Part shown: positions 30,733 through 51,424 of the stretch, one piece after another
Numbering within the stretch: the stretch's first letter is position 1
Layout: the number at the start of each line of letters is the position of its first letter
Source: Candidatus Pacebacteria bacterium CG10_big_fil_rev_8_21_14_0_10_56_10
GTDB lineage: Bacteria; Patescibacteriota; Microgenomatia; UBA1400; PJMF01
Reading direction: 5' to 3'
DNA length: 52,671 bases
Assembly (NCBI GenBank): GCA_002772645.1
Contig: PFDK01000009.1
Coordinates: 1-52,671, forward strand
Notes under the pieces: model-generated
What the model was told of the DNA's origin: nothing
Seen by the model: only the letters and a program-made list of their open reading frames with translations
The model's database searches: none
Translations under genes and position numbers: made by a program

Positions 30733-30757
30733 CTGCTCTACCCACCAGCCGTTGTTT

Positions 30758-33049: not shown

Positions 33050-33289
33050 CCCGACTTTCGCGCTTTTTGATTTTTTACGTTTCTTTCCAGTTGGCAATAT
33101 TTTCTTGGCATATCTAAAAAACTCACTTTAAGCGAGTGGGCCAAAACGGCCCACTAATGGCCCACTAAAGGCACACTAATGGCCCACTAATGACACACTG
33201 AAAATGCGCGCCAAAAAAACACCCCCAAAGAAATTATTCCCTAGGGGACAGTCGGCAAATTAAGTGTTTACTAATTGGCGAAAGTCGGG
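33050..33289 (+). mobile_element. GGCCCAC-iteron MITE-like element, copy 5 (complete, 240 bp)
   Basis: Left TIR CCCGACTTTCGC 33050-33061, right TIR GCGAAAGTCGGG 33278-33289; all internal modules present. Confidence 0.9.
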
Positions 33290-34127: not shown

Positions 34128-36262
34128 TGAAAAAACCACAGTACCACACCGCGATCATTGGCGGCGGCGCGGCCGGCCTGACGGTGGCGGTCGGGCTGGC
34201 CCGGCTGGGCAAAAAGGTGGCGCTGATCGAGCAAGACAAGCTAGGCGGGGAGTGCACTCACTCCGGTTGTGTGCCTAGCAAGGCGCTGCTCCACGCGGTC
34301 AGGACACTGCCCGACAAGCATGTTTGGCCTCACGTTCGCCGAGTAGTCGCCGAAATCTGGCACGAAGAACAGGAAATGATCGCTGGGCTGGAGACAGTTG
34401 ATGTCATCAAGGCCCGGGCCAGCTTCGTCGACGAGTACACCCTGAAACTTGAGCGAGGCACCGGTCGAACCAGCCGCACCGGTCGGGACGGCCGGACTGC
34501 TGACAAGATCACCGCTGACAACATCACTGCTGGCCGGATCGTCATCGCCGCCGGATCGTCGCCGCGAACCATCGGCATCCCCGGCTTGCCGCCGGCCAAG
34601 GACTTCACCAACCAGAACATTTTCTCGCTGCGCAAACATCCCCGGCGTTTGGCCATACTAGGGGTAGGACCGATCTCCATCGAGTTAGCCATGGCGTTCG
34701 CGGCCATGGGCACCCGGGTGGAAGTGCTGTATCGCGGCGAGGGTATTCTAAGCAAAGAGGACCCCGAAATATCGCAAGCACTGCAGCGGCGGCTGGAACA
34801 GCTGGGCGTTGTTTTTCACTGGCACACTGCTGACCTGCGCTACAGTCGCGGCCAGCTCCAGTTTACCGCCGACGGCCAACAGCGGCAGCTGACTGGGCTA
34901 ACGGGAGTGCTGCAAGCCATCGGCCGCCAACCTAACGTAACCGGCTTGGGCCTCGATGAGGCGTGCGTGGAGTACTCTGGGCGCGGCTTGGTGGTCAACA
35001 GCGCTTTTCGGACTAACGTTGGCCACATCTTCGCCATTGGCGACATCCTCGACGATGATAAGTTTACCCACCTGGCCAATGCCCAGGGCCGAGTGGTGGT
35101 CAAGTCGATCGCTTTTCCCTGGCTGCCGGCCGGACGCCTGCCGCAGGTGCCGCGGGTAACTTACACCTCTCCTGAGGTAGCCGGCATTGGCCTGACCATG
35201 GACGAGCTGGACAAGCTTGGTCCCAATGTGGTTATAAAGCTGACGGTGCCGTTTGCCGGACTGGACCGCGGCAAGACCGACCAGACGCCGGCCGATCAGC
35301 GCGTCACTGTCTACGCCCAGCGCCTGACGGGCCGGATCCTACGGGCCAGTGTTTACGCCGACCACGCCGGCGAGATGCTGCCCTACTTTATCGTGGCTGT
35401 TAACCGCCGGTTGTCGCTGTGGAAGCTCTACCCGCTGATCTTTCCGTACCCCACGCTGGCCCAGGCTTTTGCCAAGATCGCCGACCAGTTTGTTGTCGAG
35501 ACGCTAACTAATCTCCGAGCCGAGGTGGCGGCGTTTTTCGGTCACACGGCCGGCCGGCTGTGGCGCCGCTTCGGTTTCAGGTTGCTGGGGGTGGCGCTGT
35601 GGCTGGTAACGGTCTGGGCGGTCCGCCGCTGGGCGTACGCTCAAGGCTACACCTTCCAGCAGCTGCTGGCCGAGGCGGCCGAGCTGATGACCGCTACCAG
35701 CTTGGGACCGCTGGTCTATCTGGGCGCCTACTTCCTGCGGCCGGTGTTCCTGCTGCCGGCTACCTTGCTGACCGTCTTGGCTGGCTTGACGTACGGTTTA
35801 GGCTGGGGCTTCGTACTGGCGTTGATCGGCAGTACCTTATCGACTATTTTTCCCTATGCTTTGGGCCGTTGGTTTGCTCAGGCCACCGACCAGGACGAGC
35901 GGGCCCGGTCCCGGCTCAAAGCCTACACTGATCGATTAAAAAGAGAGCCCTTTACCGGCGTTTTGCTGCTGCGGCTGCTGTTCATGCCCTACGACTTGGT
36001 CAGTGTTCTGGCCGGCAATGTTCGGGTTAATTTTTGGGCTTTCTTCGGAGCAACCGCTCTGGGCAGTTCGATCGGCACCCTGACACTGGTCAGCTTTGGC
36101 ACCTCGGTGGAGGGGGGCTTGAGCAGTTTGGTTCGGGGGGAGAGCAGTCTTAGTCCGGTTGGAGTGGCCGCATCACTCGGTTTGGCGATGTTGAGCTTGA
36201 TAATCTCCCGCTACGCTCCCAAGTTGAGGCTGTTTAAGCGTCGGACCTCGCCGGCAGCCTGA
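34127..36262 (+). CDS. Fusion: FAD-dependent pyridine nucleotide-disulfide oxidoreductase plus TVP38/TMEM64 (DedA-like) membrane domain
   Basis: IIGGGAAGLT, redox CTHSGC, second Rossmann ILGVGPISIE; C-terminal LLPATLLTVLAGLTYGLGWGF. Confidence 0.75.
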   Translation: MKKPQYHTAIIGGGAAGLTVAVGLARLGKKVALIEQDKLGGECTHSGCVPSKALLHAVRTLPDKHVWPHVRRVVAEIWHEEQEMIAGLETVDVIKARASFVDEYTLKLERGTGRTSRTGRDGRTADKITADNITAGRIVIAAGSSPRTIGIPGLPPAKDFTNQNIFSLRKHPRRLAILGVGPISIELAMAFAAMGTRVEVLYRGEGILSKEDPEISQALQRRLEQLGVVFHWHTADLRYSRGQLQFTADGQQRQLTGLTGVLQAIGRQPNVTGLGLDEACVEYSGRGLVVNSAFRTNVGHIFAIGDILDDDKFTHLANAQGRVVVKSIAFPWLPAGRLPQVPRVTYTSPEVAGIGLTMDELDKLGPNVVIKLTVPFAGLDRGKTDQTPADQRVTVYAQRLTGRILRASVYADHAGEMLPYFIVAVNRRLSLWKLYPLIFPYPTLAQAFAKIADQFVVETLTNLRAEVAAFFGHTAGRLWRRFGFRLLGVALWLVTVWAVRRWAYAQGYTFQQLLAEAAELMTATSLGPLVYLGAYFLRPVFLLPATLLTVLAGLTYGLGWGFVLALIGSTLSTIFPYALGRWFAQATDQDERARSRLKAYTDRLKREPFTGVLLLRLLFMPYDLVSVLAGNVRVNFWAFFGATALGSSIGTLTLVSFGTSVEGGLSSLVRGESSLSPVGVAASLGLAMLSLIISRYAPKLRLFKRRTSPAA

Positions 36263-36297
36263 CCGGCAGCCAGCCTGGCTTGGGGCTGGACTTTGAA

Positions 36298-36584
36298 CCC
36301 GACTTTCGCGAATTAGTAACCACTTAATTTGCTGACTAGCCCCTAGGGAGTAATTTCTTTTGGGGGTGTTTTTTTGGCGCGCATTTTCAGTGTGTCATTA
36401 GTGGGCCATTAGTGGGCCAAAAGTGGGCCGTTTTGGCCCACTCGCTAAAGTGAGTTTTTTAGATATGCTAAGAAAATATCGCCAATGCCCCAATGCCAAC
36501 TAAAAAAACATCTTTAGTGACCATACTTGGTTTGCCCTTAGCCTGGAAAGAAACACAAAAATCAAAAAGCGCGAAAGTCAGGTG
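36298..36584 (-). mobile_element. GGCCCAC-iteron MITE-like element, copy 6 (complete, 287 bp; extra ~50-bp internal segment)
   Basis: CCCGACTTTCGCG at 36298-36310 and GCGAAAGTCAGG at 36573-36584; its terminal TCA supplies the stop codon of the adjacent minus-strand gene. Confidence 0.9.
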
Positions 36585-37192
36585 CCCGGCAGCCAGCCCG
36601 GCTTGGCCCTCAGCTTAGCCGCCCACTTGACCAGTCGGGTCGTCAGCCTGGTTTGGAGCTGGACTTTAAACAGCGAAGTTATCAGCAGCGCGTCCAGGCC
36701 GTGCTCGAACACGGTGAACTGGCGGCCAAAGTGGTTCGGGTCCCAGTAGCTGACCGGACTGGCGAACCTCCAGCTCCAGTTGAGCGGCCACAGCAGCAAC
36801 GGCCCGTCGTTGTGGTGGGTAACGATGTCAACGCCAGTGTGGACCAGCGAGCCGATCACTACCCACTTGAGAAGCCGGCGCGCTTTAGCGGGCAGAGGCA
36901 GCAGGTAAACGGCCGTCAGCTGCAGAGCCAAACTGAGCGGCGAGTGGAACAGGTTGTGACCGGTAATGAACAGCGGGTTGGTAAAAAAGGCATCGAAAAA
37001 CAAATACTGGAACGTGTCCGCTAGACTGCCCTGACCGGTTAGCCAAAACCAGCCAAAGGTGGCGCCGCTCAAGACCACCAGGGGAATGTCAGGCAGTACC
37101 GCCCCGATCAGGAAGCCGCGGCCGGCCAACCCGGCCAGGCCCCAGTCCCGGGCCAGCTTGGTTTGGATCAAGGCGTGGGAGTAAGTAATCAC
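36578..37192 (-). CDS. His-rich polytopic membrane protein (membrane-bound metal-dependent hydrolase-like)
   Basis: Hydrophobic helices; GHNLFHS and VHTGVDIVTHHNDGP. Confidence 0.35.
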   Translation of the reverse strand: MITYSHALIQTKLARDWGLAGLAGRGFLIGAVLPDIPLVVLSGATFGWFWLTGQGSLADTFQYLFFDAFFTNPLFITGHNLFHSPLSLALQLTAVYLLPLPAKARRLLKWVVIGSLVHTGVDIVTHHNDGPLLLWPLNWSWRFASPVSYWDPNHFGRQFTVFEHGLDALLITSLFKVQLQTRLTTRLVKWAAKLRAKPGWLPGT

Positions 37193-39783: not shown

Positions 39784-41427
39784 ATGCGGCTCTACAGTAC
39801 TCTCACCCGCCAACTCGAGGAAGTTGAACCGCTGCCGCGCCATCGACAGCCTCAGCCAGCTGACCAGCCCGATCAGTCACTCCATCACCAGACGGACAGT
39901 CCGCCGCCCCCGCCGCCGGCAAATGACCGCCCCCCCGGCCGGCGCGGGACAATCGGTCTCTACGCCTGCGGCCCAACCGTCTACGACTACACTCACCTTG
40001 GCCACTTGCGCAAGTACACCCTGGACGACGTGCTGGTCCGCACTCTGCGCCACGCTGGCTTCGACGTCAAGTTTGTCCAGAACGTCACCGACGTTGGCCA
40101 CCTGACCTCGGACGCCGACAGCGGCGAGGACAAGCTCGAGACCGGCGCTAAGAAGTACGGCCGGACGCCAGAAGAGATCGCCCGCCAGTTCGAGGATTTC
40201 TTTTTTTACTCGATGGACTTGATGGGCAACCTGCGGCCAGATATCAGCTGCCGAGCTACAGAGCACATCGCCGCCCAGCTGGAGCTGGTCAAGACTCTCG
40301 AGAAAAAAGGCTTCACCTACATTATTGAAGGCGACGGTGTCTACTTCGACACCAGCCGGCTCGACGACTACGGCCGGCTGGCCCGGCTGCGGCTCGACCA
40401 GCTTCAGGCAGGCGCCCGCGTTGAGCAGGTCAAGGGCAAACGCCAGCCCAGTGATTTCGCGCTGTGGAAGTTTGAACGGCCGGGGGAGAACCGGGCCATG
40501 GTGTGGCCCAGTCCCTGGGCGGAGCGCGGTTTTCCGGGCTGGCACATCGAGTGCAGTGCCATGAGCATGTGCTACCTCGGCGACCAGTTCGAGATTCACA
40601 CCGGCGGCATCGACCATATCCCGGTCCACCACGTCAACGAGATCGCTCAGTCTGAGGCGGCTACCGGCGCCCAGCCGTTTGTCCGGATCTGGGTCCATCA
40701 CAATTTTTTGCTGGTTGAGTCCGAGAAAATGAGCAAGTCGCTGGGCAACTTCTTAACGATCGACAGTATTCTGGAGCGCGGCTTCGCGCCCCAGGCCCTG
40801 CGGCTGTTATTTTTGTCGGGCCATTACCGCTCGGAGCTCAACTTTACTTGGCAAGCACTTGAGGCCAGTAGCACTGCTTGGCGACGGCTGGTGGCTGTGC
40901 TGGCTGAGCTCGAGAACGGGCAGGAGTTTAATGGCGATAGTGATAGTGATGGCGAAGGTGATGTCGAAGGTGCCGGCCAACAGAGTCAGGCTCACGCCCA
41001 AGCGAAACGGCAACAATTTTGGCAGTTTCTGGAGGACGACCTGAAAACGCCGGAAGCGATGGCGGTGATGTGGGAAGTGCTCAAGGATGACCAACTGACG
41101 GACCGGCAGAAACTGGGATTGCTGTTTGATTTCGACCAGGCTTTGGGCCTGCGGCTGCGCCAGGCACGGGCCGAAGCGCTTCGTCAAGGTGAGAAGCGGC
41201 CGGACCAAGGTTTAGGCGGCCGGCTAAGCACGGCCGACCTGCCCGATGAGGTGATCGCGCTACTGGAAAAGCGGGCGACAGCTCGGGCCGAGCAAGACTG
41301 GGCCACCGGCGACCAGCTCCGCGACCAGCTGGCAGACCAGGGTTACCGGATTATCGACGAGCCTGACGGCAGCCAACGGCTGGTCCAGTCGGCTGAAGGT
41401 GCTCAGTCTCAACCTTCCCAACGCTGA
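39784..41427 (+). CDS. cysS: Cysteine--tRNA ligase
   Basis: CGPTVYDYTHLGH (HIGH) and KMSKSLGN motifs. Confidence 0.9.
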   Translation: MRLYSTLTRQLEEVEPLPRHRQPQPADQPDQSLHHQTDSPPPPPPANDRPPGRRGTIGLYACGPTVYDYTHLGHLRKYTLDDVLVRTLRHAGFDVKFVQNVTDVGHLTSDADSGEDKLETGAKKYGRTPEEIARQFEDFFFYSMDLMGNLRPDISCRATEHIAAQLELVKTLEKKGFTYIIEGDGVYFDTSRLDDYGRLARLRLDQLQAGARVEQVKGKRQPSDFALWKFERPGENRAMVWPSPWAERGFPGWHIECSAMSMCYLGDQFEIHTGGIDHIPVHHVNEIAQSEAATGAQPFVRIWVHHNFLLVESEKMSKSLGNFLTIDSILERGFAPQALRLLFLSGHYRSELNFTWQALEASSTAWRRLVAVLAELENGQEFNGDSDSDGEGDVEGAGQQSQAHAQAKRQQFWQFLEDDLKTPEAMAVMWEVLKDDQLTDRQKLGLLFDFDQALGLRLRQARAEALRQGEKRPDQGLGGRLSTADLPDEVIALLEKRATARAEQDWATGDQLRDQLADQGYRIIDEPDGSQRLVQSAEGAQSQPSQR

Positions 41428-42062
41428 CCCGCCGAGCAGTACTCTTGTTCGGTGACGATCAGGTGATCGAGCAGGCAGACCCCGAGCAGTTCGCCGGCGG
41501 CTTGGAGCGTCTTGGTGACCTGCAGGTCGGCTGGGCTGGGCTGGGGATCGCCTGAAGGGTGGTTGTGGGCAACGATCACCGCCGCGCAGGGAAGCTGAAG
41601 GGCAGGGGCGAAGACGTCGCGGGGCTGAAAGCTGGAGCTGTGGACACCGCCGATGCTGATCGTCTCTTGCTTGAGGACTTGGTGACGGGCGTTTAAGTAA
41701 AAGCCCAGCACGTACTCGCGGTGTTTGGTCCTGATCGATTGGCAGGCGGCAAAGACGTCGGCTGGTTGGTGGAGGACCAGGGTGGGCGGCGGCGCGAAGC
41801 ACCGCCGCCCCACTTCCATCGCCGCCAGCAGTAAAGTTGTCTTGGCCGGCCCCAGGCCGGCCACGCTCTCCAGCCGCTGCCAAGACCAGCCAGGCAGTTC
41901 GTTTAACTTTCCCTGGCTGAGCAGCTGACGGACGATCTGCTTGACCGGCCGACCTTGAGTACCTGAGACCAGCAGCGCCTGCAGCAGCTCGGCATCGCTC
42001 AGGTTTCCCGGCCCCAGCCGCCGCATTTTTTCCCGGGGCCGTTGGTGTGAGACGCTCAACAT
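41409..42062 (-). CDS. radC: RadC-family JAMM-domain protein
   Basis: HNHPSGDPQPSPAD. Confidence 0.85.
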   Translation of the reverse strand: MLSVSHQRPREKMRRLGPGNLSDAELLQALLVSGTQGRPVKQIVRQLLSQGKLNELPGWSWQRLESVAGLGPAKTTLLLAAMEVGRRCFAPPPTLVLHQPADVFAACQSIRTKHREYVLGFYLNARHQVLKQETISIGGVHSSSFQPRDVFAPALQLPCAAVIVAHNHPSGDPQPSPADLQVTKTLQAAGELLGVCLLDHLIVTEQEYCSAGQRWEG

Positions 42063-42286
42063 CCATCCCCAACTCTACTCGGGCAACCTTGAATCTAGCT
42101 TGCGCGCGCTTTGCCTAAGGGCTCGCCGTCTGCCCACCACCAGCCCACCACCGGCTTGCCACCTGCCCACCACCAGCCCGCCGCCGCTCGGCCATCTGCT
42201 ATACTGCTGCTACCTTAAGCTTAGTTGCTTTTTACTCGATACTTAACAGCGGCCTGACGGGGTCGGTCTGTCGGCTTGAGGTTGGT

Positions 42287-43579
42287 ATGCGTGTCTCGGT
42301 CATCGCCCTACTCCAACTTGCCACTATCGCCACCGTTACCTCGGCCCTGGCCATGACCGTACAAACTGTCTTCGCCCCGCCTCTGGCGTCAGCCCAGGCA
42401 GCTGCTCCTACTCCCACTGACGAGCTGGCAGTACCGCAAGTCATCGAGGGACCGCACTTTTTCAATGGCCAGAATGTCATCATCACCGACACCCTGGAAG
42501 GCGATGTCTACGCGGTTGGCGGTACCGTTCAGCTGGAGGGCACCATCATCGGCAGTTTGCTAACGGCTGGCGGTCAGGTCACCATCAACGGCGAGGTTAC
42601 CGACGACGTCCGGGCGGCCGGCGGCCAAGTCAGCTTCAACGGCGCCGTGGGCGACAACGTCACCGTGCTGGGCGGTACTGTTACTTTTGGCCCCGAGAGC
42701 GCGGTTGGCGGTAGCGTGGTGGCCGGTGGCAGCAGCGTCTCGATGAGCGGCGAAGTTTTGGGCAACACCCTGATTGGCGGCGGTACCACTCGGTTGGCCG
42801 GCACCTTTGCTCAGAATGTCCGCTTGGGCTCAGACACTGTCGAGATTTTGCCCGGCGCGCTGATCGGCGGCTCGATCGGCGGAGAGGTGGGTACTCAACT
42901 TGAGATCGCCCCCCAAGCCACCGTGGCCGGCCAGCGCCAGGTCCGCGTCCACCAGCTCCAGCAAAGAGCCGACCAGACCCGCCGCCAAGCCCAGCGACTG
43001 TTCCAGACTGGCCAAGCGGCTTGGTTCCTGGTGACGCTGGTCATGTCACTGCTGGGCGGCAGCTTTTTACTCTACCTGTTTGATCGCCAAGCCGAACGCG
43101 TTACCCAACTGGCCGCCGCCGCGCCGGTAGCGGCTTTGGGCTGGGGCGCGGTTCAGTTGATCGTCACCCCGATCCTGGCCTTGCTGCTGCTGATCACGAT
43201 CTTTGCCGCCCCGTTGGCCGGCTTGATCCTGCTGTCGTACCTGATCTCGGTGATCATCGCCGGCTGGGTAGGGGCCTATGTGGTCGGTCACCGGCTGTGC
43301 CAACAGCTAGGTGGAACTCTCCGTCACCACCGGTACCTCCAACTGGTGTTGGGGGTGTTGGCTGTCAAACTGCTGGGACTGGTACCACTGCTGGGTTGGG
43401 TAGTCAGGTTTTTGGTGTTCATGGTGGGACTGGGCTTGGTGGTGATGGTTGCTCGCGACGTCACCCGCCAGTCGTCAGCCTACCCGTTGGCTACTCCGTC
43501 AGACGGCACCAGCCGGCACCAGCCGAACGGCAGTCACCGCCCCAAATCATCGGGTGCTAAGCGCCGGCCCCGTCTCTAG
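42287..43579 (+). CDS. Membrane protein with signal peptide, bactofilin-like beta-helical repeats and C-terminal TM helices
   Basis: Repeated G-x-V/I units (GGTVQLEGTIIG, GGQVTINGEV, GGQVSFNGAV..) then 4 hydrophobic helices. Confidence 0.45.
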   Translation: MRVSVIALLQLATIATVTSALAMTVQTVFAPPLASAQAAAPTPTDELAVPQVIEGPHFFNGQNVIITDTLEGDVYAVGGTVQLEGTIIGSLLTAGGQVTINGEVTDDVRAAGGQVSFNGAVGDNVTVLGGTVTFGPESAVGGSVVAGGSSVSMSGEVLGNTLIGGGTTRLAGTFAQNVRLGSDTVEILPGALIGGSIGGEVGTQLEIAPQATVAGQRQVRVHQLQQRADQTRRQAQRLFQTGQAAWFLVTLVMSLLGGSFLLYLFDRQAERVTQLAAAAPVAALGWGAVQLIVTPILALLLLITIFAAPLAGLILLSYLISVIIAGWVGAYVVGHRLCQQLGGTLRHHRYLQLVLGVLAVKLLGLVPLLGWVVRFLVFMVGLGLVVMVARDVTRQSSAYPLATPSDGTSRHQPNGSHRPKSSGAKRRPRL

Positions 43580-43718
43580 TAATCTCTACTCAAATACCTC
43601 AAAAGATTGCTGGTAGCGGATCGGCAAAAACTGGATACAAAATATGATCAATTCGCCAGCCGATCGCCAGCCGAGGGCGTTTTTCCCCGTCTCACATCGA
43701 TTTACACAAAATCTCATA

Positions 43719-43735
43719 GTTCACAATTTGTGAAC
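43719..43735. promoter_or_regulatory. 17-bp palindrome GTTCACAATTTGTGAAC (candidate operator) in a 290-bp AT-rich intergenic region
   Basis: Perfect 8-bp arms around a single central base. Confidence 0.3.
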
Positions 43736-43870
43736 AACTTCAAACAACATCAAACCAGGCTACCTAGGCAAGGAGTACTTGAGTAAACCTAGGTAATGCT
43801 TAAGCAATGCCTAGGCAACTATTTTTCTATCCTAGAGTAATTTTACTTAGGTCGAAATACGGCTTGTGCT

Positions 43871-44503
43871 ATGATAAAAACTCCGCACATGAGCTCTCCC
43901 ATTTTTTCGCACTTTCGCCGCCGCGATCGGCTAATTTACCAGGTCCTGACCGCGATGGATGACTTCAACCCGCTCGCGCCAACACACCCCCCAGAGGAGT
44001 ACTTTAGTGAATTGAGTAGCTCGATTGTTGGCCAGCAGCTGTCGACTACCGCTGCCCATACAATTTACACCCGGCTGGTTAAGTTACTGGCAGGCGATGT
44101 GACTGCCGCCCGGCTGCTAGCTGCCGACGACCAAGCCATGCGCGACTGCGGTCTGTCGTGGGCCAAGGTTCGCTCCGTCAAGGACTTGGCGGCCAAGGTG
44201 GCCAACCACCAGCTCAAGCTTAACCGGCTGACCACCATGAGCGATGCTCAAGTCATCGCCGAGCTGACCAAAGTCAAAGGTATCGGCCAGTGGACAGCCG
44301 AGATGTTCCTGATATTCGCGCTGGGGAGGGAAGACATTTTTTCTCACGGCGATCTGGGACTGCGGCGGGCTATGGAGGGCTTGTACGGGTTGGGGCAGCT
44401 GCCGTCGCCTGCCCAAGCCGACCAGATCTCAACCAAGTGGCGGCCGTACCGCAGCTACGGCTGCCTGGCGCTGTGGCACACCCTGGACAACGCGCCGATT
44501 TAA
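43871..44503 (+). CDS. alkA: HhH-GPD DNA glycosylase (AlkA-type 3-methyladenine glycosylase II)
   Basis: GIGQWTAEMFLIFALGREDIFSHGDLGLRRAM; C-terminal WRPYRSYGCLALW. Confidence 0.75.
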   Translation: MIKTPHMSSPIFSHFRRRDRLIYQVLTAMDDFNPLAPTHPPEEYFSELSSSIVGQQLSTTAAHTIYTRLVKLLAGDVTAARLLAADDQAMRDCGLSWAKVRSVKDLAAKVANHQLKLNRLTTMSDAQVIAELTKVKGIGQWTAEMFLIFALGREDIFSHGDLGLRRAMEGLYGLGQLPSPAQADQISTKWRPYRSYGCLALWHTLDNAPI

Positions 44504-44506
44504 AGT

Positions 44507-44735
44507 CTGACTTTCGCGCTTTTTGATTTTTTTCGTTTCTTTCCAGTTGGCATTTTTTCTTGGCATATCTAAAAAAAACTTAAAGCGCGTGGGCCAAAAC
44601 GGCCCACTTTTGACACACTAACGGCCCACTAATGGCCCACGGAAAATGTGCGCCAAAAAAACACCCCAAAGAAATTATTCCCTAGGGGAGGGGACAGTCA
44701 GCAAACTAAGTGGTTGCTAATTCGCAAAAGTCTGG
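44507..44735 (+). mobile_element. GGCCCAC-iteron MITE-like element, copy 7 (complete, 229 bp)
   Basis: CTGACTTTCGCG .. GCAAAAGTCTGG termini; all modules present; begins 3 bp after the alkA-like stop. Confidence 0.9.
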
Positions 44736-44830
44736 CGACCAGATCTCAACCAAGTGGCGGCCGTACCGCAGCTACGGCTGCCTGACTCACGTTCAGGTCC
44801 TGCCGGTGAAGTGCGGTATGATAGCCGCAG

Positions 44831-45997
44831 ATGCTCGCCGAGCCCACCAGAGCACTGCTGCGCCGGGCCATCATCTGGGTGATGTCGGGGGTGGCGGTGC
44901 TGTTGGTGTTAAGTCTGGCCTGGCAGTGGCTGCCGCGCCAGCGCTCGGTTAATACCGGTGGGGGAGTAGGGGAGCAGGTTTCCCCGGCCGACCAAACTGC
45001 TCAGAGTGCCCGGGCTGGGCCTGCCACCCCAGCGCCGGAGGCCAGCGAACCAGCCGCGGCTGCCGCTCAGCCCCCGGCTCCCAACAGCACAGTCAAGCTG
45101 CTGCTGGTAGGGGACATGATGTTCGATCGCGACATCAGGCTGGCGGCCGAGCGTCACCCCGACGGGTACGACTTCATCCTGGCGCCGGTCCGGCAACTGT
45201 TAACAGACCACGACTTAGTGATCGGCAACCTGGAAGGGCCGGTGACTACCTTTAAGTCGCGCAGTGCCGGCTCCGCCGTCGGCTCGACCGACAACTTCCT
45301 GTTTACTTTCAGCACTAAAGTTCCCGCCTTGTTGGCTCGCCACCAGATGAGACTGGTCAACCTGGGCAACAATCATATTGGCAACTTCGGCCCGGAGGGT
45401 ATTGCCCAGACCGGCCGACTGCTCGATCTGGCCCAAGTAGAGTACTTTGGTTGTATTGGCCAGCCTCGGTTTGACGCCCAGCGCTGCCTGCGTCAAGTTG
45501 AGGTGGGGGGACTGCGCCTGCTGTTTGTTAACCACAACCAGTTTGCCGAGTACGATCGGCAGCGCGTTCTTGAGGAGTTGCGCCGTCGGGTTGCCGGCCA
45601 ACTAGCCAGCCAAACCGAAACCGCTCCAACTGCCCAGCCCGACCGACCGCCTGACCTGACCATCGTCTACGCCCACTGGGGCAGTGAGTACGTCACCAAA
45701 GCCGGACCGACGGTCCAAGACCTGGCCCGCGCTTACGTCGATGCCGGCGCCGACCTGGTAGTCGGCAGTCATCCCCACGTTGTCCAGCAGTCTGACCAGT
45801 ACCAGGGAGTGCCGATCTACTACTCGCTGGGCAACTTCGTGTTTGACCAGTACTTTGATGAAAATGTCCGCCGTGGACTGGCGCTGACAGTCGAGGTCGA
45901 TCCCGTCACCACACAGTTCACGCTCAGAGAGCACCAGCTCGAGCTGCGGCCCAACGGCCAGACTGTCTTGACGGACTCCAACACGGCCGCTAACTAA
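44831..45997 (+). CDS. CapA-family (poly-gamma-glutamate synthesis / metallophosphatase-like) protein
   Basis: LVGDMMFDR, GNLEGPVT, NLGNNH, YAHWGSEY and GSHPHVVQ. Confidence 0.75.
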   Translation: MLAEPTRALLRRAIIWVMSGVAVLLVLSLAWQWLPRQRSVNTGGGVGEQVSPADQTAQSARAGPATPAPEASEPAAAAAQPPAPNSTVKLLLVGDMMFDRDIRLAAERHPDGYDFILAPVRQLLTDHDLVIGNLEGPVTTFKSRSAGSAVGSTDNFLFTFSTKVPALLARHQMRLVNLGNNHIGNFGPEGIAQTGRLLDLAQVEYFGCIGQPRFDAQRCLRQVEVGGLRLLFVNHNQFAEYDRQRVLEELRRRVAGQLASQTETAPTAQPDRPPDLTIVYAHWGSEYVTKAGPTVQDLARAYVDAGADLVVGSHPHVVQQSDQYQGVPIYYSLGNFVFDQYFDENVRRGLALTVEVDPVTTQFTLREHQLELRPNGQTVLTDSNTAAN

Positions 45998-46068
45998 AAG
46001 CCCGCCGCCGGCCACGTCGATACTTTCAATAACTGGCACTGTACGCTCAGCAAGCTGGGACGATAGCC

Positions 46069-46473
46069 TCACTTTGTTCGTCTGGATCGCCGTTCCCGAG
46101 AACGTTTGGGCTGGGGAGGGTTGTCAAGGCCACTATCGAGTTCTTCCCAGCCGTCGTAGCGGCTGAAAAACTGTCTCAGCATCAAAAAAAGCTCGCCGGC
46201 CAAATAACCCAGGATGGCGTAGGCGATCAGCGCGAACAGCGTCGAGAAATCGATCACCAATCCGCCCTCGAGCTGTGAAGTTGGGAACATGCCCTCAAAA
46301 GGCGCCAGCAGGGGATCGGTGGTGGTCGTGACCCACTGGACAAACGGCGCCGTTTGGGAAGCGCCGAACAGCCGCAGCGCCACCCGCAGTACCAGTAAGC
46401 TCTCCACCAAGCCGGTCACAAAATTGATCAAGACGATGATTATGTCTGGCGGAGTACGCATCTGAGTTTGCAT
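46069..46473 (-). CDS. yggT: YggT-family membrane protein
   Basis: LLVLRVALRLF..FVQWVTTTTDPLLAPFEG..IDFSTLFA. Confidence 0.6.
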   Translation of the reverse strand: MQTQMRTPPDIIIVLINFVTGLVESLLVLRVALRLFGASQTAPFVQWVTTTTDPLLAPFEGMFPTSQLEGGLVIDFSTLFALIAYAILGYLAGELFLMLRQFFSRYDGWEELDSGLDNPPQPKRSRERRSRRTK

Positions 46474-46474
46474 A

Positions 46475-47059
46475 TCAGCGCGAGTATACCATGCATCTAC
46501 AATCGAGTACCGATAGCCAGTACTGACTGATCCTAGAGCTATCGATCAGCCAGCTGATCATCCCAGAGGTGAACAGAAAAACCGACTTTTTAATATCAAA
46601 AGCCGACAGGAAAGTACTCCTGATCGCTCCTCCCACCCCAAAGACACCAGCAAAGAACCCGGACAAAGACCCTCCCCATACGGCACCGGCGGTCGAAGGC
46701 TTAACCTTCCAACTGGGTCTAAAGAACAGGAACGAGACATAAGCCACTAGAAACAGTCCCAGCCAGCGCTGTAGCAGCTCCTCCGGCAAGGTAAGCGGCA
46801 GCCGAGCAGCCAGGAAGCTCAGCACAACTCCCGGCACGACGAACAGTAAAATCAGCCGCCAGTTAAATCCTTTCTTGAAAAAGAGCATTTTCCAGATGTC
46901 TCCAAACCAGTGAACCACCCCTACAAACAGCAAAACCGTTGGTAGCGGCAGGAACAAGGACAGCACCGGCACCATGATCGTCGAGGTCCCAAAACCGGTC
47001 ATGGTGCCCACGGCGGCGGCGGTAAAAGTTAGGAGGGTCAGGTAGAAGATCTCAACCAT
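46475..47059 (-). CDS. TauE/SafE (DUF81) anion-exporter family protein, apparently 3'-truncated
   Basis: GTMTGFGTSTIMVPVL and GVFGVGGAIRSTFL repeats; shorter than I would expect for this family, and the last codons run into the yggT promoter region. Confidence 0.5.
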   Translation of the reverse strand: MVEIFYLTLLTFTAAAVGTMTGFGTSTIMVPVLSLFLPLPTVLLFVGVVHWFGDIWKMLFFKKGFNWRLILLFVVPGVVLSFLAARLPLTLPEELLQRWLGLFLVAYVSFLFFRPSWKVKPSTAGAVWGGSLSGFFAGVFGVGGAIRSTFLSAFDIKKSVFLFTSGMISWLIDSSRISQYWLSVLDCRCMVYSR

Positions 47060-47164
47060 ACTTTCATTCTACCGCAAGTGTCGCCACCTACATTCCAAGT
47101 TGGGATCAGGATGGCGGACTCAGGGAGGGAACACCCAGCTTTAATTTTGATATACTCCTCCAGT

Positions 47165-47923
47165 ATGGCAGAAGATTTTTACGACAAGGTTGCTAGTAAA
47201 TTCGGAGGCTATGGGTACGGGACTAGCCCTCTATATACAAGCGAATATCCAGCAGGAAATCCTGAAAAGGTATTTAAGGAAAAACTTTTAGGATTGAGCT
47301 CAAAAAATAAAGTAGCCCTAGATATTGGCTGTGCTGATGGTAAGTTTACCCTTTCGATAGCGCCTTCTTTCCAAAAAATATATGGAGTTGACACTTCAAG
47401 TGTAAATCTAGATGTAGCTAAAAGTCACAGTGAGGATGAAAGGAGTAGAAATGTCGAGTATTTTTTACAGGATGCAAGCCATACTTCATTTGAAGATTCT
47501 TTTTTTGACTTAGCTTATTGCAGAAGAGGGCCATCTTATTATAAAGAGCAGCACCGTGTTCTTAAGTCAAAAGGACACTATCTTCAAATTGGGATAGGCG
47601 AGAAGGACACAGTAGAGCTAAAAAAGATATTTGGTAGAGGACAAGATTTTGGAAAATGGAACAGATCAAGATTGGATGAAAATCTAAAAACACTTCAATC
47701 ACTTGGGTTTAAAGTTCTTTTTGCGGAAGATTTTCATTACTTTGAGTATTACCCGTCCTATGCAGAGTTAGATTTGTTTTTACAAGGTGTCCCTATTTTT
47801 GAAGATTTTGATTCACAAAAAGATCGAGCATCATTGCAAAAGTACGTTGACAAGTTTTCAAGTGACAAAGGTATTCAGCTTTCGCGTCATCGATTGGTGA
47901 TGGTGATGAAAAAAGTTAGTTAG
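47165..47923 (+). CDS. Class I SAM-dependent methyltransferase (strongly AT-rich cassette)
   Basis: VALDIGCADGKFT motif I. Confidence 0.7.
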   Translation: MAEDFYDKVASKFGGYGYGTSPLYTSEYPAGNPEKVFKEKLLGLSSKNKVALDIGCADGKFTLSIAPSFQKIYGVDTSSVNLDVAKSHSEDERSRNVEYFLQDASHTSFEDSFFDLAYCRRGPSYYKEQHRVLKSKGHYLQIGIGEKDTVELKKIFGRGQDFGKWNRSRLDENLKTLQSLGFKVLFAEDFHYFEYYPSYAELDLFLQGVPIFEDFDSQKDRASLQKYVDKFSSDKGIQLSRHRLVMVMKKVS

Positions 47924-47941
47924 ATCAATTTATAAACAGCG

Positions 47942-48077
47942 TTGACTAGCCCCTAGGGAATAATTTCTTTTGGGGGTGTTTTTTTGACGCGCATTTTCAG
48001 TGTGCCATTAGTGTGCCGAAAGTGGGCCGTTTTGGCCCACTCGCTTAAAGTGAATTTTTTAGATATGCCAAGAAAAT
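47942..48077 (-). repeat. GGCCCAC-iteron element, copy 8 (both termini truncated)
   Basis: TTGACTAGCCCCTAGGGAATAATTTC..CAGTGTGCC ATTAGTGTGCC GAAAGTGGGCC GTTTTGGCCCAC..AGATATGCCAAGAAAAT. Confidence 0.85.
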
Positions 48078-48105
48078 GAAGTCACAGCTAGGGTAAAATA
48101 CAACC

Positions 48106-49257
48106 ATGAGTTTGGCTGTCGGGATAGTAGGGTTGCCCAATGTGGGCAAGTCCACCCTGTTCAACGCCTTGCTCAAGCGCCAAGCCGCCCTGGCAGCCAA
48201 CTACCCGTTCGCCACCATCGAGCCCAACGTGGGAGTGGTGCCGGTGCCCGACAGTCGATTGGCGGAGCTGGCCAAAGTGGTCGGCACCGAGGTCATCAAG
48301 CCGGCTACCGTCGAGTTTGTCGATATTGCCGGGCTGGTTCGCGGCGCCCACCGGGGAGAAGGGCTGGGCAATAAGTTTCTCCATCACATCCGCGAGACCA
48401 ACCTGATCTGTCAAGTGCTCCGGGCTTTTGACGATCAGCGAGTGGCCCGGGAAGGAGCGGTCGATCCGGCCCAGGACCTGGCCACTGTCCGCGCCGAGCT
48501 GATGCTGGCCGATCTAGCCACTCTGGACAAGCAAGCCGAGCCTAAAGGTGTTACCGACCGAACCGTCCAGCAGCGCTGGCGGCACATCCAGCAGCTGCGC
48601 GATTGGCTATCAGCAGAACAACTGCCCTGGCAGCAGTTAGCTAAGTTGGGTCAGAGTGAGCGCCCGCCCGCCACTCCCGTCACCGCCAAGTCCGCCACCG
48701 CCATCTCGACAGAACCCGTAGCCGCCACCGCCAGGGAACTCAACTTGCTGACCGCCAAACCGGAGCTGATCGTCCTCAACGTGTCCGAGTCTCAGCTGGC
48801 CGCCGGTATCGCGGAGCTAACCCGCCGGTACGCCGCCGAGCTGACAGTGCCGGCCCACAGCTTACTGGTGATGTCTAACTTGATCGAGAGCGAGCTGTCC
48901 AGCCTGTCTGCTGCGGACCAGCAGCTCTACCTGCGCCAGCTCGGTCTTGAACAAAGCGGTCTGGAGCGGTTGGTGACCGCCGCCTACCGCTTACTGAGCT
49001 TGCAGAGTTTCCTGACAGCGGGTGAGAAAGAGGTTAGGGCCTGGACGATCAGCCGGGGGACCACCGCCCGGCAGGCCGCCGCCGTCATTCACTCGGACTT
49101 TGCCCAAAAAATGATCAATGCTCAAGTCATCAACTACACGGATTTCCTCAAGGCGGGTGGCTGGAAGCCGGCTCGCGACCGCGGTCTGATTCGCACTGAG
49201 GGCCGCGACTACCTAATGCGGCCTGACGACGTGGTTGAGTTTAGGGTAGGGAGGTAG
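48106..49257 (+). CDS. ychF: Ribosome-binding ATPase YchF
   Basis: GIVGLPNVGKSTLFNAL; C-terminal TGS-like region. Confidence 0.9.
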   Translation: MSLAVGIVGLPNVGKSTLFNALLKRQAALAANYPFATIEPNVGVVPVPDSRLAELAKVVGTEVIKPATVEFVDIAGLVRGAHRGEGLGNKFLHHIRETNLICQVLRAFDDQRVAREGAVDPAQDLATVRAELMLADLATLDKQAEPKGVTDRTVQQRWRHIQQLRDWLSAEQLPWQQLAKLGQSERPPATPVTAKSATAISTEPVAATARELNLLTAKPELIVLNVSESQLAAGIAELTRRYAAELTVPAHSLLVMSNLIESELSSLSAADQQLYLRQLGLEQSGLERLVTAAYRLLSLQSFLTAGEKEVRAWTISRGTTARQAAAVIHSDFAQKMINAQVINYTDFLKAGGWKPARDRGLIRTEGRDYLMRPDDVVEFRVGR

Positions 49258-49328
49258 CTGCTGAGTTTGTCGGCGCCAGCCGAGGAGTTATTTTTTGAAC
49301 TCAGGAAGCCTCCGGCCAGGCCTCAAGG

Positions 49329-49492
49329 TATGCTATAATCACGCCTCAAGAAACGGTTCGTCTCTCGATGAAGTGGCTAGCTAAGAATCGATAACTACAG
49401 TACCAATAGTTAGCTCAAGCCAGCCGCCGCCTCGTGATCCAACGCTCAAGACAACCGTGAGTACAAGTTAGTACAATCTTGTACGGGAGTAC
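49329..49492 (+). promoter_or_regulatory. Candidate promoter (TGcTATAAT, 49331-49339) and ~150-nt structured 5' leader of rpsF
   Basis: Extended -10; hairpin GGCTAGCTAA (49375-49384) / TTAGCTCAAGCC (49410-49421); GGGAG 4 nt before the ATG. Confidence 0.35.
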
Positions 49493-50377
49493 ATGCCAAG
49501 CCGCACACCTAGTTCTACCAGCAAACTCGGTTCTACCAGCACAGCCCGGGCTAGTACCGCGGAAACCAAGGCCAAGGCTAAAACCCGCCCAGTTGCCTCG
49601 TCCCAAAAAACCACCGTTCCCAAGCAAGCTCCTGTTCAGCAAGCTACTTCTCAGGGCGCCTCTCGACCTACCACTCCTAAACGGACCGCCTCTGGACCTA
49701 CCACTCCTAGACAGATCGCTCTCAAACCCACCACCTCAAAACGGACCGCTTCCAAAAAAACCAACCCCAAACAGCCCGCCACCAGTCGCTCCCGAACAGC
49801 CACCACCCGCCAATACGAGCTTACCTACTTGGTACCGGTACAAGCCAGCGCCGAACTGGAGCCGCTCCGCGCCCAAATCGCCCAGTTGGTTACCAAACAC
49901 CGCGGCACCGTCACCCAGACCGAGGACTGGGACAAACATCGGCTAGCTTATGCCATCAATGCCGGCGGTCAGCTCCACCGGGAAGCCATCTTTACTCACC
50001 TAGGGCTGGACCTGTCACCTGACCGCGTCAAGACCCTCGACAAGGACATGACGCTCCAACCCCAAGTTATTCGCCACTTGATCGTCACCAGCGATGGCGT
50101 ACCATCGAGTATGGCCCCTGGCGAGGGCGGCCCAGACAGCGAGCCAAGTAGTGGCCCAGCCAGTAGTGGCCTAGACGGCGGTGGAAGCAGTATTCGGCGT
50201 AACAGCCGAGACATCAATCGAGACGGCAGCAAAAACACCGGTCGGAACACCAGTCGGGACGGCAGCAGCAACACCAGCCCAAAAACTAACCGAGACAACT
50301 CTGCTCGCCGCCATCGAAAACCAGCCACACGGCCTGGGCCCGGTAATGCTGACGGCGCTACGGTTGATGTAAGCTAA
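49493..50377 (+). CDS. rpsF: 30S ribosomal protein S6 with long basic N-terminal and Ser/Gly/Asn-rich C-terminal extensions
   Basis: Core RQYELTYLV..DWDKHRLAYAI..; no alternative start near the core. Confidence 0.75.
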   Translation: MPSRTPSSTSKLGSTSTARASTAETKAKAKTRPVASSQKTTVPKQAPVQQATSQGASRPTTPKRTASGPTTPRQIALKPTTSKRTASKKTNPKQPATSRSRTATTRQYELTYLVPVQASAELEPLRAQIAQLVTKHRGTVTQTEDWDKHRLAYAINAGGQLHREAIFTHLGLDLSPDRVKTLDKDMTLQPQVIRHLIVTSDGVPSSMAPGEGGPDSEPSSGPASSGLDGGGSSIRRNSRDINRDGSKNTGRNTSRDGSSNTSPKTNRDNSARRHRKPATRPGPGNADGATVDVS

Positions 50378-50436
50378 GCTCATATAATGACGGCAGTACT
50401 AACAACCACCCTTGGTAATAGCAGATAGGAGCACAT

Positions 50437-51102
50437 ATGTCCGCCCGTTCACTCAACAAGGTAATGTTAATTGGTAACCTGACCCGGGATCCCAACTTAC
50501 GCTTCACGCCCACCGGTACGGCGGTGTGTTCGTTTGGTTTGGCTACTAACAGGAGCTGGACCCCACCAGATGGCGGCGAAAAACAAGAGCGCGCCGAGTA
50601 CCACAACATCGTGGCCTGGGGTAAACTGGCCGATATCTGCGGTCAGCTGCTCCACATTGGTGACAAGGTGTACGTCGACGGCCGGATCCAGACACGCGAC
50701 TGGCGGACCGACGACGGCCAGGACCGGCGAGTGACCGAAATTGTTATCGATAACATGATGTTGCTCAAGTCGCAGTCAGGCAGTCGCGACTACGGTCGGG
50801 ACCAGGACTACGATGGGTACGCCGACGACTACGGTCAGCAAAACACTGACGGTAATAGCGGCGGTGCTCCAGATAGCGATGACGGCGATGTTGGCGGAAA
50901 CGGCGGCGATAGCCGGCCGGCCGGTTCAGGTCGCAGCCGCGGCAAAAGCAAGTCGGGCCGAACAGGTCGGTCAGCCGCTGGCGGCAGTAAAAGCACCGGG
51001 GGCAAAAGTTCCGGCGACGACCGCAAGTCTAAATCAAGGTCCGGCGGCGGTGACCAGGACGCCAGCGATGCTGAGGACATTGCCGATGACATCCCATTCT
51101 AG
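50437..51102 (+). CDS. ssb: Single-stranded DNA-binding protein
   Basis: LNKVMLIGNLTRDPNLRFTPTG OB fold; Gly/Ser/Asp tail ending DDIPF; AGGAG SD at 50427-50431. Confidence 0.9.
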   Translation: MSARSLNKVMLIGNLTRDPNLRFTPTGTAVCSFGLATNRSWTPPDGGEKQERAEYHNIVAWGKLADICGQLLHIGDKVYVDGRIQTRDWRTDDGQDRRVTEIVIDNMMLLKSQSGSRDYGRDQDYDGYADDYGQQNTDGNSGGAPDSDDGDVGGNGGDSRPAGSGRSRGKSKSGRTGRSAAGGSKSTGGKSSGDDRKSKSRSGGGDQDASDAEDIADDIPF

Positions 51103-51150
51103 CCTCGGAGCTAACGCATTAACTAGGGTCTCAACTTAGGACAACATCAT

Positions 51151-51354: not shown

Positions 51355-51424
51355 CACGGCAGAGCTGTTAGGACCAGCTTCCTTGGTCACCCCGAGAGGT
51401 TCCGGCAGTGTACAATAAACCCTT

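What the first reader, a model, noticed from the sequence alone, without database searches (positions are those of the whole stretch)
44419..44784. Perfect 49-bp direct repeat of the alkA-like 3' coding region brackets element copy 7
CGACCAGATCTCAACCAAGTGGCGGCCGTACCGCAGCTACGGCTGCCTG occurs at 44419-44467, inside the glycosylase gene, and again at 44736-44784, directly abutting the right TIR. Between them lie the last 36 bp of the gene (..ALWHTLDNAPI stop) and the 229-bp element, so the layout is A-B-[MITE]-A-C. The first copy continues with a family-typical C-terminus (WRPYRSYGCLALW). The second generates the spurious ORF 44710-44952. A 49-bp duplication is far longer than a normal transposition target-site duplication. 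It looks more like Campbell-type integration of a molecule carrying a gene 3' end, or template switching during insertion.
Basis: seen in the sequence. Interest (0 to 1): 0.65.

Follow-up and report, generated by a model that had tools for sequence, protein, structure and literature searches.

The report
Long target duplication beside a MITE
The perfect 49-bp repeat is real and is most likely the surviving part of an unusually long (about 87 bp) target duplication, made when a small non-coding mobile element landed just after a DNA-repair gene in an uncultured groundwater bacterium; other copies of the element carry similar long duplications.

Summary
CGACC...GCCTG occurs exactly twice (44419-44467 and 44736-44784), with none expected by chance. 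The layout is A - B (38 nt, the native gene end) - 230-bp MITE - A' - C. The same structure is assembled at 99.98-100% identity in contigs from four other datasets, so it is not a one-off misassembly.

It is not a one-off event either. Of 12 complete copies of this MITE family (13-bp inverted ends CCTGACTTTCGCG...CGCGAAAGTCGGG), 5 carry long flanking direct repeats. At random positions the rate is 0.4%. In each case one repeat copy sits within 1 nt of an element tip. The duplicated DNA is unrelated from site to site: a gene 3' end, a gene 5' end, or non-coding DNA. Two sites are flush on both sides, like true target-site duplications of 56 and 88 bp with later internal deletions.

Campbell-type integration is not supported. 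There is no recombinase and no shared att core, B is native, and C is not a displaced gene end. The best reading is transposition with widely staggered joints (51-95 bp). The known precedent is IS1634/IS1549, which make 8-514 bp repeats by an unexplained mechanism.

One point is unexplained. In 3-4 sites the far copy lacks exactly the distal 38-41 nt. No transposase or empty site could be found.

The parts
43871..44503 (+). alkA-like DNA-3-methyladenine glycosylase gene (HhH-GPD), intact, stop TAA at 44501-44503
   Evidence: ORF. PF00730 and homologues at up to 53% identity. C-terminal alignment.
44419..44467 (+). Repeat copy A (49 bp), inside the gene; encodes ..DQISTKWRPYRSYGCL
44468..44505 (+). 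Segment B (38 nt): last 11 codons (ALWHTLDNAPI), stop codon and AG. Native gene end, present once only.
   Evidence: Family-typical C-terminus. Single occurrence in the window.
44506..44735 (+). MITE copy (230 bp). Left inverted repeat TCTGACTTTCGCG at 44506-44518, right inverted repeat CGCAAAAGTCTGG at 44723-44735. Internal hairpin GTGGGCCAAAACGGCCCAC and 11-bp GGCCCAC-type tandem units.
   Evidence: It differs from the family consensus by 5.3%.
44736..44784 (+). Repeat copy A' (49 bp, 100% identical to A), starting on the base after the right inverted repeat
44785..44830 (+). Segment C (46 nt) between A' and the ATG of the downstream gene. It is not similar to B and is not a glycosylase gene end.
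44831..45997 (+). Downstream PGA_cap (CapA-like) gene. The exact protein was used to retrieve independent assemblies of the locus.
36298..36582 (-). Second MITE copy in the window that has a long flank duplication (long form, 285 bp). Its left inverted repeat supplies the TGA stop (36578-36580) of the YdjM-like gene 36578..37192(-).
36583..36670 (-). Target copy X (88 nt, 3' coding end of the YdjM-like gene), flush with the left tip of the MITE at 36298-36582
   Evidence: (family D6)
36260..36297 (-). Target copy X' (38 nt), flush with the right tip of the same MITE. It equals X minus about 50 nt lying between internal 13-nt repeats CAGCCYGGYTTGG.
33050..33289 (+). Complete MITE copy without any detectable flank duplication (comparison copy)

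Best explanation
A and A' are the remains of a long target-site duplication. It was made when a 230-bp non-autonomous inverted-repeat element (a MITE) inserted 2 nt after the stop codon of the glycosylase gene. The two element tips are joined precisely to target DNA at two points 87 bp apart: the left tip after 44505 and the right tip before 44419. A transposase supplied in trans, making very widely staggered strand transfers, would produce this. Repair synthesis would then leave the intervening target (A+B) on both sides. The gene-side copy (A-B) is complete, so the gene stays intact. The far-side copy keeps only its element-proximal 49 bp (A') and lacks the distal 38 bp (B'). That part was lost during gap repair or by an early deletion. 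Shown: the repeat; its exact abutment to the inverted repeat; that A-B is native; reproducibility in independent assemblies; and the family-wide excess of long flank duplications of unrelated sequence. Inferred: the transposase, the staggered-joint chemistry, and how B' was lost.
For: (1) The repeat is perfect and far above chance.
(2) Five of 12 complete family copies have left-versus-right flank repeats scoring 17.5-49. The maximum for mismatched flank pairs is 13.5. At 3000 random positions with the same geometry, 0.4% score 17.5 or more. By my calculation the binomial P is about 1e-9.
(3) In all five sites a repeat copy starts or ends within 1 nt of an inverted-repeat tip.
(4) Two sites are flush on both sides, as a true TSD should be. 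In L083 the copies are 56 and 38 nt and differ by an 18-nt internal indel. In window 36.3 kb the copies are 88 and 38 nt and differ by about 50 nt between internal repeats.
(5) The duplicated DNA is unrelated between sites: a glycosylase 3' end, a YdjM-like 3' end, codons 2-19 of a downstream gene in L081, and apparently non-coding DNA in L089 and L083 (the only ORFs over it are short and unconvincing). The repeats are therefore made from local target DNA, not carried by the element.
(6) The 44.5-kb MITE copy is among the less diverged: 5.3% from consensus and 4 private changes in 226 positions. This is compatible with a young insertion and an undiverged A'.
(7) Truncation is common in this family: five of the eight window copies are partial. 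Deletion of part of a non-functional duplicate is therefore plausible.
(8) There is a precedent. IS1549 and IS1634 make long, variable direct repeats of 8-514 bp by an unexplained mechanism, and the IS1634-family end consensus is C-----YT (PMC2266710). The MITE end CCTGACTT fits that weak consensus.
(9) The structure is present in MEGAHIT k=141 contigs from other samples.
Against: The second copy is not a full duplicate. B' is entirely absent although A' has no substitution, and there is no microhomology at the A'/C joint.

The displaced copy lies at a nearly constant distance from the other tip: 38 nt here, 41 in L089 and 40 in L081. L091 gives 39, but its 12-nt repeat is not significant on its own. 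Random later deletions would not give such a constant length. My rough post hoc estimate is P about 0.005, and the alignment ends are uncertain by 2-3 nt.

Seven of 12 complete copies show no duplication at all, long or short.

No transposase with matching ends was found in the window or in about 250 kb of related contigs.

No empty site exists in any collection searched. The nearest relatives share only 53-65% protein identity.
Confidence: 0.55

Rival explanations
1. Templated patch, that is, template switching at insertion. The element inserted at a single point, between B and C. While the right-hand joint was being made, a DNA end copied 12-55 nt of nearby target, stopping about 40 nt short of the already joined left tip (for example at the edge of a bound transposition complex). 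It was then joined to C. Under this reading A' is an insertion-associated templated copy and never was part of a full 87-bp duplication.
For: The geometry A-B-MITE-A'-C occurs at three sites (window 44.5 kb, L089 and, mirrored, L081), and marginally at L091. B is 38, 41, 40 and 39 nt, while A varies from 12 to 55 nt. No trace of B' is seen. Both B and C look native and functional: here B is the gene end and C is the upstream region of the CapA-like gene; in L081 B is the start codon region and C is the neighbouring gene's stop.
Against: There is no microhomology at the MITE/A' or the A'/C joints, which polymerase template switching usually needs. The MITE/A' joint is exactly at the inverted-repeat tip, as expected of transposase-catalysed joining. 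L083 and window 36.3 kb are flush on both sides and fit a full duplication with later internal deletions. The constant offset rests on three solid cases and was noticed post hoc.
Confidence: 0.25
2. Campbell-type site-specific integration. A small circle carrying B, the MITE and A recombined with the chromosomal A. This replaced the gene's 3' end with an element-borne copy and displaced the original end to the right.
For: Direct repeats bracket an insert that includes the functional gene end, as at tRNA-gene or protein-gene att sites.
Against: C, read in frame after A', gives THVQVLPVKCG... It lacks the invariant LALW motif and is not a displaced gene end. B-like sequence is not next to the left end of any other copy. 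The repeats differ at every site, so there is no common att core. The element is 230 bp and non-coding, and no integrase, transposase or reverse transcriptase domain was found in 30 window ORFs.
Confidence: 0.03
3. Assembly artefact. The 49-bp repeat is a de Bruijn graph loop or a chimeric join of strain variants.
For: The source is metagenomic. A k=31 Logan contig (L113) breaks inside the repeat after exactly 30 nt, and assemblies often break at MITE copies.
Against: The complete structure is present at 99.98-100% identity in MEGAHIT k=141 contigs from two other ENA assemblies. The MITE-A'-C side is present in two JGI assemblies. A 141-mer spans the 49-bp repeat together with both of its flanks. 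Diverged (80-86% identical) flank repeats at other copies cannot be assembly products.
Confidence: 0.02
4. The element preferentially inserted into pre-existing local direct repeats, or the repeats arose later by unrelated slippage. On this reading the association is one of target choice, not of a duplication made by insertion.
For: Some flanks are locally repetitive: L089 has further short repeats, and the 36.3-kb site has internal CAGCCYGGYTTGG repeats.
Against: At random positions, direct repeats of this strength spanning a 250-bp gap occur at 0.4%. It is unlikely that five unrelated loci already had repeats ending within 1 nt of where the tips landed. A pre-existing exact copy of 49 nt of coding sequence just downstream of the gene would itself need an explanation.
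Confidence: 0.03

Closest known systems
IS1634 and IS1549 (IS1634 family, related to IS4), which create long, variable-length direct repeats
   Same: Both are inverted-repeat elements whose insertion leaves target duplications of tens to hundreds of bp that vary from copy to copy (8-514 bp; PMC2266710). No mechanism is known for either. From my memory of Vilei et al. 1999, which I could not read here, IS1634 has 13-bp terminal inverted repeats, as this element does. The weak family end consensus C-----YT fits CCTGACTT.
   Different: This element is a 230-300-bp non-coding MITE with no transposase in view, so family membership cannot be tested. Most IS1634-family members make 5-6-bp AT-rich duplications, which were not seen here. 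In 3-4 sites here the second copy lacks the distal 38-41 nt. I have not seen this asymmetry described for IS1634 or IS1549, but the original papers PMC93511 and PMC106989 were not available.
Integrative elements that target the 3' end of a gene and carry a replacement end (phage/ICE attP-attB, Campbell model)
   Same: Direct repeats flank the insert, and the target gene stays intact.
   Different: There is no recombinase and no conserved core shared by copies. The gene end next to the element is native rather than element-borne, and the sequence after the second repeat is not a displaced gene end.
Ordinary bacterial MITEs (for example Correia, or IS630- and IS5-derived MITEs)
   Same: Small size, terminal inverted repeats, no coding capacity, many intergenic copies, and size variants.
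   Different: Ordinary MITEs have short, fixed target duplications of 2-10 bp. Here none is detectable, and 5 of 12 copies have duplications spanning 51-95 bp.
Templated insertions in break repair (alt-EJ, MMBIR/FoSTeS) and the variable duplications of target-primed retrotransposition
   Same: A nearby stretch of tens of nt is copied next to a new joint, and its length varies.
   Different: Those joints usually show microhomology, and none is present here. The joints sit exactly at the inverted-repeat tips. No reverse transcriptase was found in the window.

Membership tests
MITE (non-autonomous inverted-repeat transposon) | Small size (<~500 bp) with no coding capacity | tested here: met
   Complete copies are 225-302 bp. 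Only spurious ORFs cross them.
MITE (non-autonomous inverted-repeat transposon) | Terminal inverted repeats conserved among copies | tested here: met
   Thirteen-bp ends, CCTGACTTTCGCG on the left and CGCGAAAGTCGGG on the right, in 12 copies.
MITE (non-autonomous inverted-repeat transposon) | Multiple dispersed copies in one genome | tested here: met
   There are 8 copies or fragments in the 52.7-kb window and about 20 more in contigs of the same population. These are metagenomes Ga0210057 and Ga0066639, linked to the window through shared samples and an intermingled MITE family.
MITE (non-autonomous inverted-repeat transposon) | Target-site duplication directly flanking the ends | tested here: inconclusive
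   No short TSD is detectable. Long duplications occur in 5 of 12 copies, but they are flush on both sides in only 2.
MITE (non-autonomous inverted-repeat transposon) | A related autonomous element with the same ends | tested here: not met
   No pair of matching ends encloses an ORF, and there is no multi-copy transposase-like ORF in the window plus 32 loci. Only a small part of the genome could be read, so absence is not shown.
IS1634 family | DDE transposase of the IS1634 type | not testable with these tools
   No transposase is linked to the element.
IS1634 family | End consensus C-----YT | tested here: met
   CCTGACTT has C at position 1 and T, T at positions 7-8. Only three positions are specified, so the evidence is weak (about 1 in 32 by chance).
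IS1634 family | Duplications of 5-6 bp AT-rich (typical members) or long and variable (IS1634, IS1549) | tested here: inconclusive
   Long variable duplications were seen (51-95 bp span). The 5-6-bp class was not seen.
Campbell-type integrative element at a gene 3' end | Site-specific recombinase encoded by or next to the element | tested here: not met
   The insert is 230 bp and non-coding. Pfam scans of 30 window ORFs found no integrase or recombinase.
Campbell-type integrative element at a gene 3' end | The same att core flanks every copy, and the element carries the replacement gene end | tested here: not met
   Flank repeats are unrelated between sites, and left flanks of other copies do not resemble B.
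Campbell-type integrative element at a gene 3' end | The displaced original gene end lies after the second repeat | tested here: not met
   A'-C reads ...YGCLTHVQVLPVKCG... and lacks the invariant L-W of the family.
Diversity-generating retroelement (TR/VR pair) | A reverse transcriptase nearby, and repeat differences confined to adenines of the template copy | tested here: not met
   There are 0 differences in 49 nt, which include 11 adenines. No RT domain was found in the window ORFs scanned.

The most novel reading that the evidence does not exclude
The enzyme that mobilises this MITE works with a built-in ruler. One end is joined to the target, and about 40 bp of adjacent target DNA is held or protected. 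A variable stretch beyond that (12-55 nt) ends up copied next to the other end. This gives a 'displaced' target duplication, A-B-element-A', rather than a flush one. If so, this is an undescribed transposition and repair pathway. It could also give a mechanistic handle on the long, variable direct repeats of IS1634 and IS1549, which remain unexplained.
Probability: 0.2. Interest if true: 0.65.

Novelty: new variant of a known kind. Interest (0 to 1): 0.45.

Why it matters
Target-site duplications are normally short and of fixed length, because the transposase sets the stagger. The few elements that make long, variable duplications (IS1634, IS1549) have had no mechanistic model for over 25 years (PMC2266710). 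Here a high-copy MITE family in a small candidate-phyla-radiation genome gives several natural examples with exact joints. One is a very young insertion, with 49 of 49 positions identical. The family also shows a possible regularity, a 38-41-nt offset, that can be tested by a full-genome census or by experiment.

In practice, such insertions duplicate gene ends without breaking the gene. They create spurious ORFs such as 44710..44952, they fragment short-k metagenome assemblies at the repeat, and in one case they supply a gene's stop codon (36578-36580). Annotators of these genomes should expect all of this.

If the pattern is only decay of ordinary long duplications, the finding is a modest addition to known IS biology.

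Tried and rejected
1. Empty-site comparison. The glycosylase has no relative above 53% identity in the 5.8-billion-protein set or in the GTDB representative genomes. The nearest Saccharibacteria locus (L001) is not syntenic. Every contig that carries the exact CapA-like protein has the same structure. IleS and FBPase of the same organism also have no relative above 58-65%.
2. Exact look-up of the glycosylase itself returned nothing.
3. Search for the autonomous element. There were no extra matching ends around an ORF, no multi-copy ORFs in the MITE-bearing contigs, and no transposase, integrase or RT domains in 30 window ORFs. The viral-contig scan for the MITE core found nothing.
4. Short TSDs. 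Proximal 25-nt flanks of the 12 copies behave like the null, apart from the 36.3-kb site, whose long duplication lies partly within those 25 nt.
5. Known RNAs. There were no Rfam hits and no tRNAs in the window. The element is not unusually structured as a single strand (z = -1.4).
6. Remnants of B. No second copy of B was found on either strand with up to 3 mismatches, and gapped alignment of the flanks showed no B'.
7. Extending the genome for more copies. About 3.7 kb upstream of the window held two truncated copies. About 5 kb downstream held none. A 22.9-kb region around IleS held only the copy already known. The FBPase look-up returned only a 1.4-kb contig.
8. A shared promoter-like motif GGTATRATAGC upstream of the downstream genes at two sites is not general.
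9. An RNA-guide reading of A' (a flank abutting the right end, as in TnpB guide RNAs). I rejected it because in L081 the abutting copy is at the left end, the lengths vary from 12 to 55 nt, and nothing supports an RNA scaffold.
10. The original IS1634 and IS1549 papers are not held. No paper was found on MITEs in Patescibacteria or Saccharibacteria.

Full report
**The observation**

The 49-mer CGACCAGATCTCAACCAAGTGGCGGCCGTACCGCAGCTACGGCTGCCTG occurs exactly twice in the window, at 44419-44467 and 44736-44784 on the + strand. There are no mismatches and no matches in 100 shuffles. The neighbouring bases differ, so the repeat is exactly 49 bp.

Copy A lies in ORF 43871..44503, an HhH-GPD (PF00730) DNA-3-methyladenine glycosylase. 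A plus the next 36 nt encodes ...WRPYRSYGCLALWHTLDNAPI*. This matches the family C-terminus (...W.PYRSYasLALWHSLDN, with L201 and W202 invariant in 16 sequences). A-B is therefore the native gene end.

Copy A' begins on the base after the right inverted repeat of a repeated element. It is followed by 46 nt (C) and then the ATG of a PGA_cap (CapA-like) gene. Read in frame after A', C gives THVQVLPVKCG..., which is not a glycosylase end.

**The element**

Alignment of the window copies defines a non-coding element with 13-bp inverted ends. The consensus is CCTGACTTTCGCG on the left and CGCGAAAGTCGGG on the right. This copy has TCTGACTTTCGCG and CGCAAAAGTCTGG. Inside are a conserved hairpin, GTGGGCCAAAACGGCCCAC, and two to six 11-bp GGCCCAC-type tandem units. 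The family has a short form (about 225-260 bp) and a long form (about 265-300 bp).

By these ends the copy here spans 44506-44735 (230 bp). The piece between A and the element (B) is 38 nt. The window holds eight copies or fragments, five of them truncated.

There is no Rfam family, no tRNA and no unusual single-strand structure.

**Not an assembly artefact**

The exact CapA-like protein is encoded on contigs from other datasets.
- L114 (ENA ERZ27293412, MEGAHIT k141) equals window 44317-46646 at 100% and includes A-B-MITE-A'-C.
- L117 (ENA ERZ27293400, a 47-kb contig) equals window 40437-52671 at 99.98%.
- L115 (JGI Ga0210019) and L116 (JGI Ga0066640) cover MITE-A'-C.
- The k=31 Logan contig L113 starts 30 nt inside the repeat, as expected for a real 49-bp repeat.

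**The organism**

A metagenome scan with the hairpin core returned 32 loci. About 20 hold true copies, mostly from Ga0210057 and one from Ga0066639. None overlaps the window. The copies from these contigs and from the window are intermingled: the nearest relative of the 44.5-kb copy is the L081 copy at 93.9%. Window genes also occur in the same set of samples.

IleS on one of these contigs is PIR59120.1, named Candidatus Pacebacteria bacterium CG10_big_fil_rev_8_21_14_0_10_5.... The only taxon that fits is ..._56_10, and the window's GC content of 57% agrees. That the window belongs to this organism is an inference.

The lineage is isolated. Best outside hits are 53% (glycosylase), 58% (IleS) and 65% (FBPase). 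No empty site could therefore be found for any insertion.

**The same thing happens at other copies**

For 12 complete copies I aligned 200 nt of left flank with 200 nt of right flank. Five give direct repeats scoring 17.5-49. The maximum for mismatched flank pairs is 13.5. Only 0.4% of 3000 random positions with the same spacing reach 17.5.

| Site | Left of the element | Right of the element |
|---|---|---|
| Window 44.5 kb | A (49 nt, 100% identical to A') at -87..-39 | A' at +1..+49 |
| L089 | 39 nt (82% identical) at -80..-42 | +1..+39; both copies apparently non-coding |
| L081 | 50 nt ending 1 nt before the left tip | 55-nt copy at +41..+95, which is codons 2-19 of the downstream gene |
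| Window 36.3 kb | X, 88 nt, flush | X', 38 nt, flush; X' is X minus about 50 nt between internal 13-nt repeats. The left inverted repeat supplies the TGA stop of the YdjM-like gene |
| L083 | X, 56 nt, flush | X', 38 nt, flush, with an 18-nt internal indel |

L091 has a marginal 12-nt repeat with the same geometry as the first case. The other copies show neither long nor short duplications.

**What this means**

The repeats are made from local target DNA. They are anchored at the element tips and are unrelated in sequence from site to site. That is the signature of an insertion-generated duplication, not of an element-borne att site.

The spans between the two joints are 87, 80, 95, 88 and 56 bp (51 bp in L091). 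These are far longer than normal and they vary. [quoted passage not shown] The MITE end fits the weak IS1634-family end consensus C-----YT. Membership cannot be tested because no transposase was found.

**What is not explained**

At the finding's site the second copy is incomplete. A' is perfect, but the 38 nt corresponding to B are absent, and there is no microhomology at the A'/C joint.

The same holds in L089 (41 nt missing) and, mirrored, in L081 (40 nt). L091 gives 39 nt. In L081 and here, both B and C look native and functional.

A later deletion is possible. Truncation is common in the family, and the 44.5-kb element copy is not old. However, a nearly constant 38-41 nt is not what random deletions predict. 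My rough post hoc estimate is P about 0.005, from three solid cases, and the alignment ends are uncertain by 2-3 nt.

One speculative way to get this is as follows. The 50-95-bp duplex between widely staggered joints does not melt spontaneously. Strand-displacement synthesis from one nick then stops about 40 bp short of the other tip, at the edge of the bound complex. The displaced strand is cut there and joined to the far flank. This is inference only.

**Verdict**

Campbell-type integration is rejected. Template switching during insertion remains the main rival for the incomplete copy.

The most likely account is a long-stagger target duplication by a MITE mobilised in trans. That makes it a new variant of the rare IS1634/IS1549-type behaviour, with an unexplained and possibly informative regularity. 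The key missing data are a whole-genome census, the autonomous partner and an empty site.

Noticed in passing
window 36578-36582 (with gene 36578..37192 on the - strand): The YdjM-like membrane protein gene reads into the left inverted repeat of a MITE and takes its TGA stop from CCTGAC. If the flank duplication is removed, the inferred pre-insertion reading frame would have run 8 codons further, to a TAA at about 36235-36237.
   Followed up: partly
window 27239-27324; also 36378-36441, 47988-48040, 33140-33200, 44598-44640: Inside the MITE there are arrays of two to six 11-bp units (AGTGGGCCATT or AGTGGGCCGAA). They sit next to an inverted copy of the same heptamer in the hairpin GTGGGCCAAAACGGCCCAC. 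The one-helical-turn spacing suggests a protein-binding array, for example subterminal transposase sites. The number of units varies between copies.
   Followed up: no
window 1080-1237, 5188-5250, 27201-27412, 30757-30884, 47943-48077; L121 262-407 and 2872-3011: Most MITE copies in and just upstream of the window are truncated or internally deleted, which points to a strong deletion bias in non-coding DNA of this genome. Copy density is very uneven: 8 in the 52.7-kb window, but 1 in a 22.9-kb region around IleS (L124).
   Followed up: partly
L113, L118, L122, L123 (window 44755, 48024, 1198, and about 33190-36375): Independent assemblies of the same population end inside MITE copies or, in L113, 30 nt inside the 49-bp repeat. 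The element family is a main cause of contig breaks for this organism.
   Followed up: partly
window 44308-44320 and 44780-44792: There are two sequences resembling the left inverted repeat. CCTGATATTCGCG (11 of 13 matches) lies inside the glycosylase gene. CCTGACTCACGTT (9 of 13) straddles the A'/C joint. Matches at this level also occur elsewhere in the window by chance, so their significance is unclear.
   Followed up: partly
window 42120-42185: Six tandem 11-nt units (for example TGCCCACCACC and AGCCCACCACC) lie in the intergenic region between the RadC gene and the DUF8173 gene. They are unrelated to the MITE.
   Followed up: no
window 49657-49716: A 30-nt tandem repeat (87% identical) lies inside the 294-aa ribosomal protein S6 gene (49493..50377). 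That gene is far longer than a usual S6.
   Followed up: no
window 44664-44701 (- strand): Within the MITE, the consensus scans flag one terminator-like hairpin with a T-run and one promoter-like site, both on the - strand. On the + strand the conserved hairpin is followed by only four T. No function has been shown.
   Followed up: no
L124 8268-9818 versus L125 8268-8900 and 8970-9818: A 516-aa ORF of unknown function in the JGI assembly is split into two ORFs in the ENA assembly of the same region. This is either a population polymorphism or a sequencing error.
   Followed up: no
window 18675-19898 and 14989-16026: The window encodes DprA (DNA-processing protein A, linked to natural transformation) and a Fic-domain protein among otherwise housekeeping genes. 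There are no mobile-element enzymes anywhere in the window.
   Followed up: no
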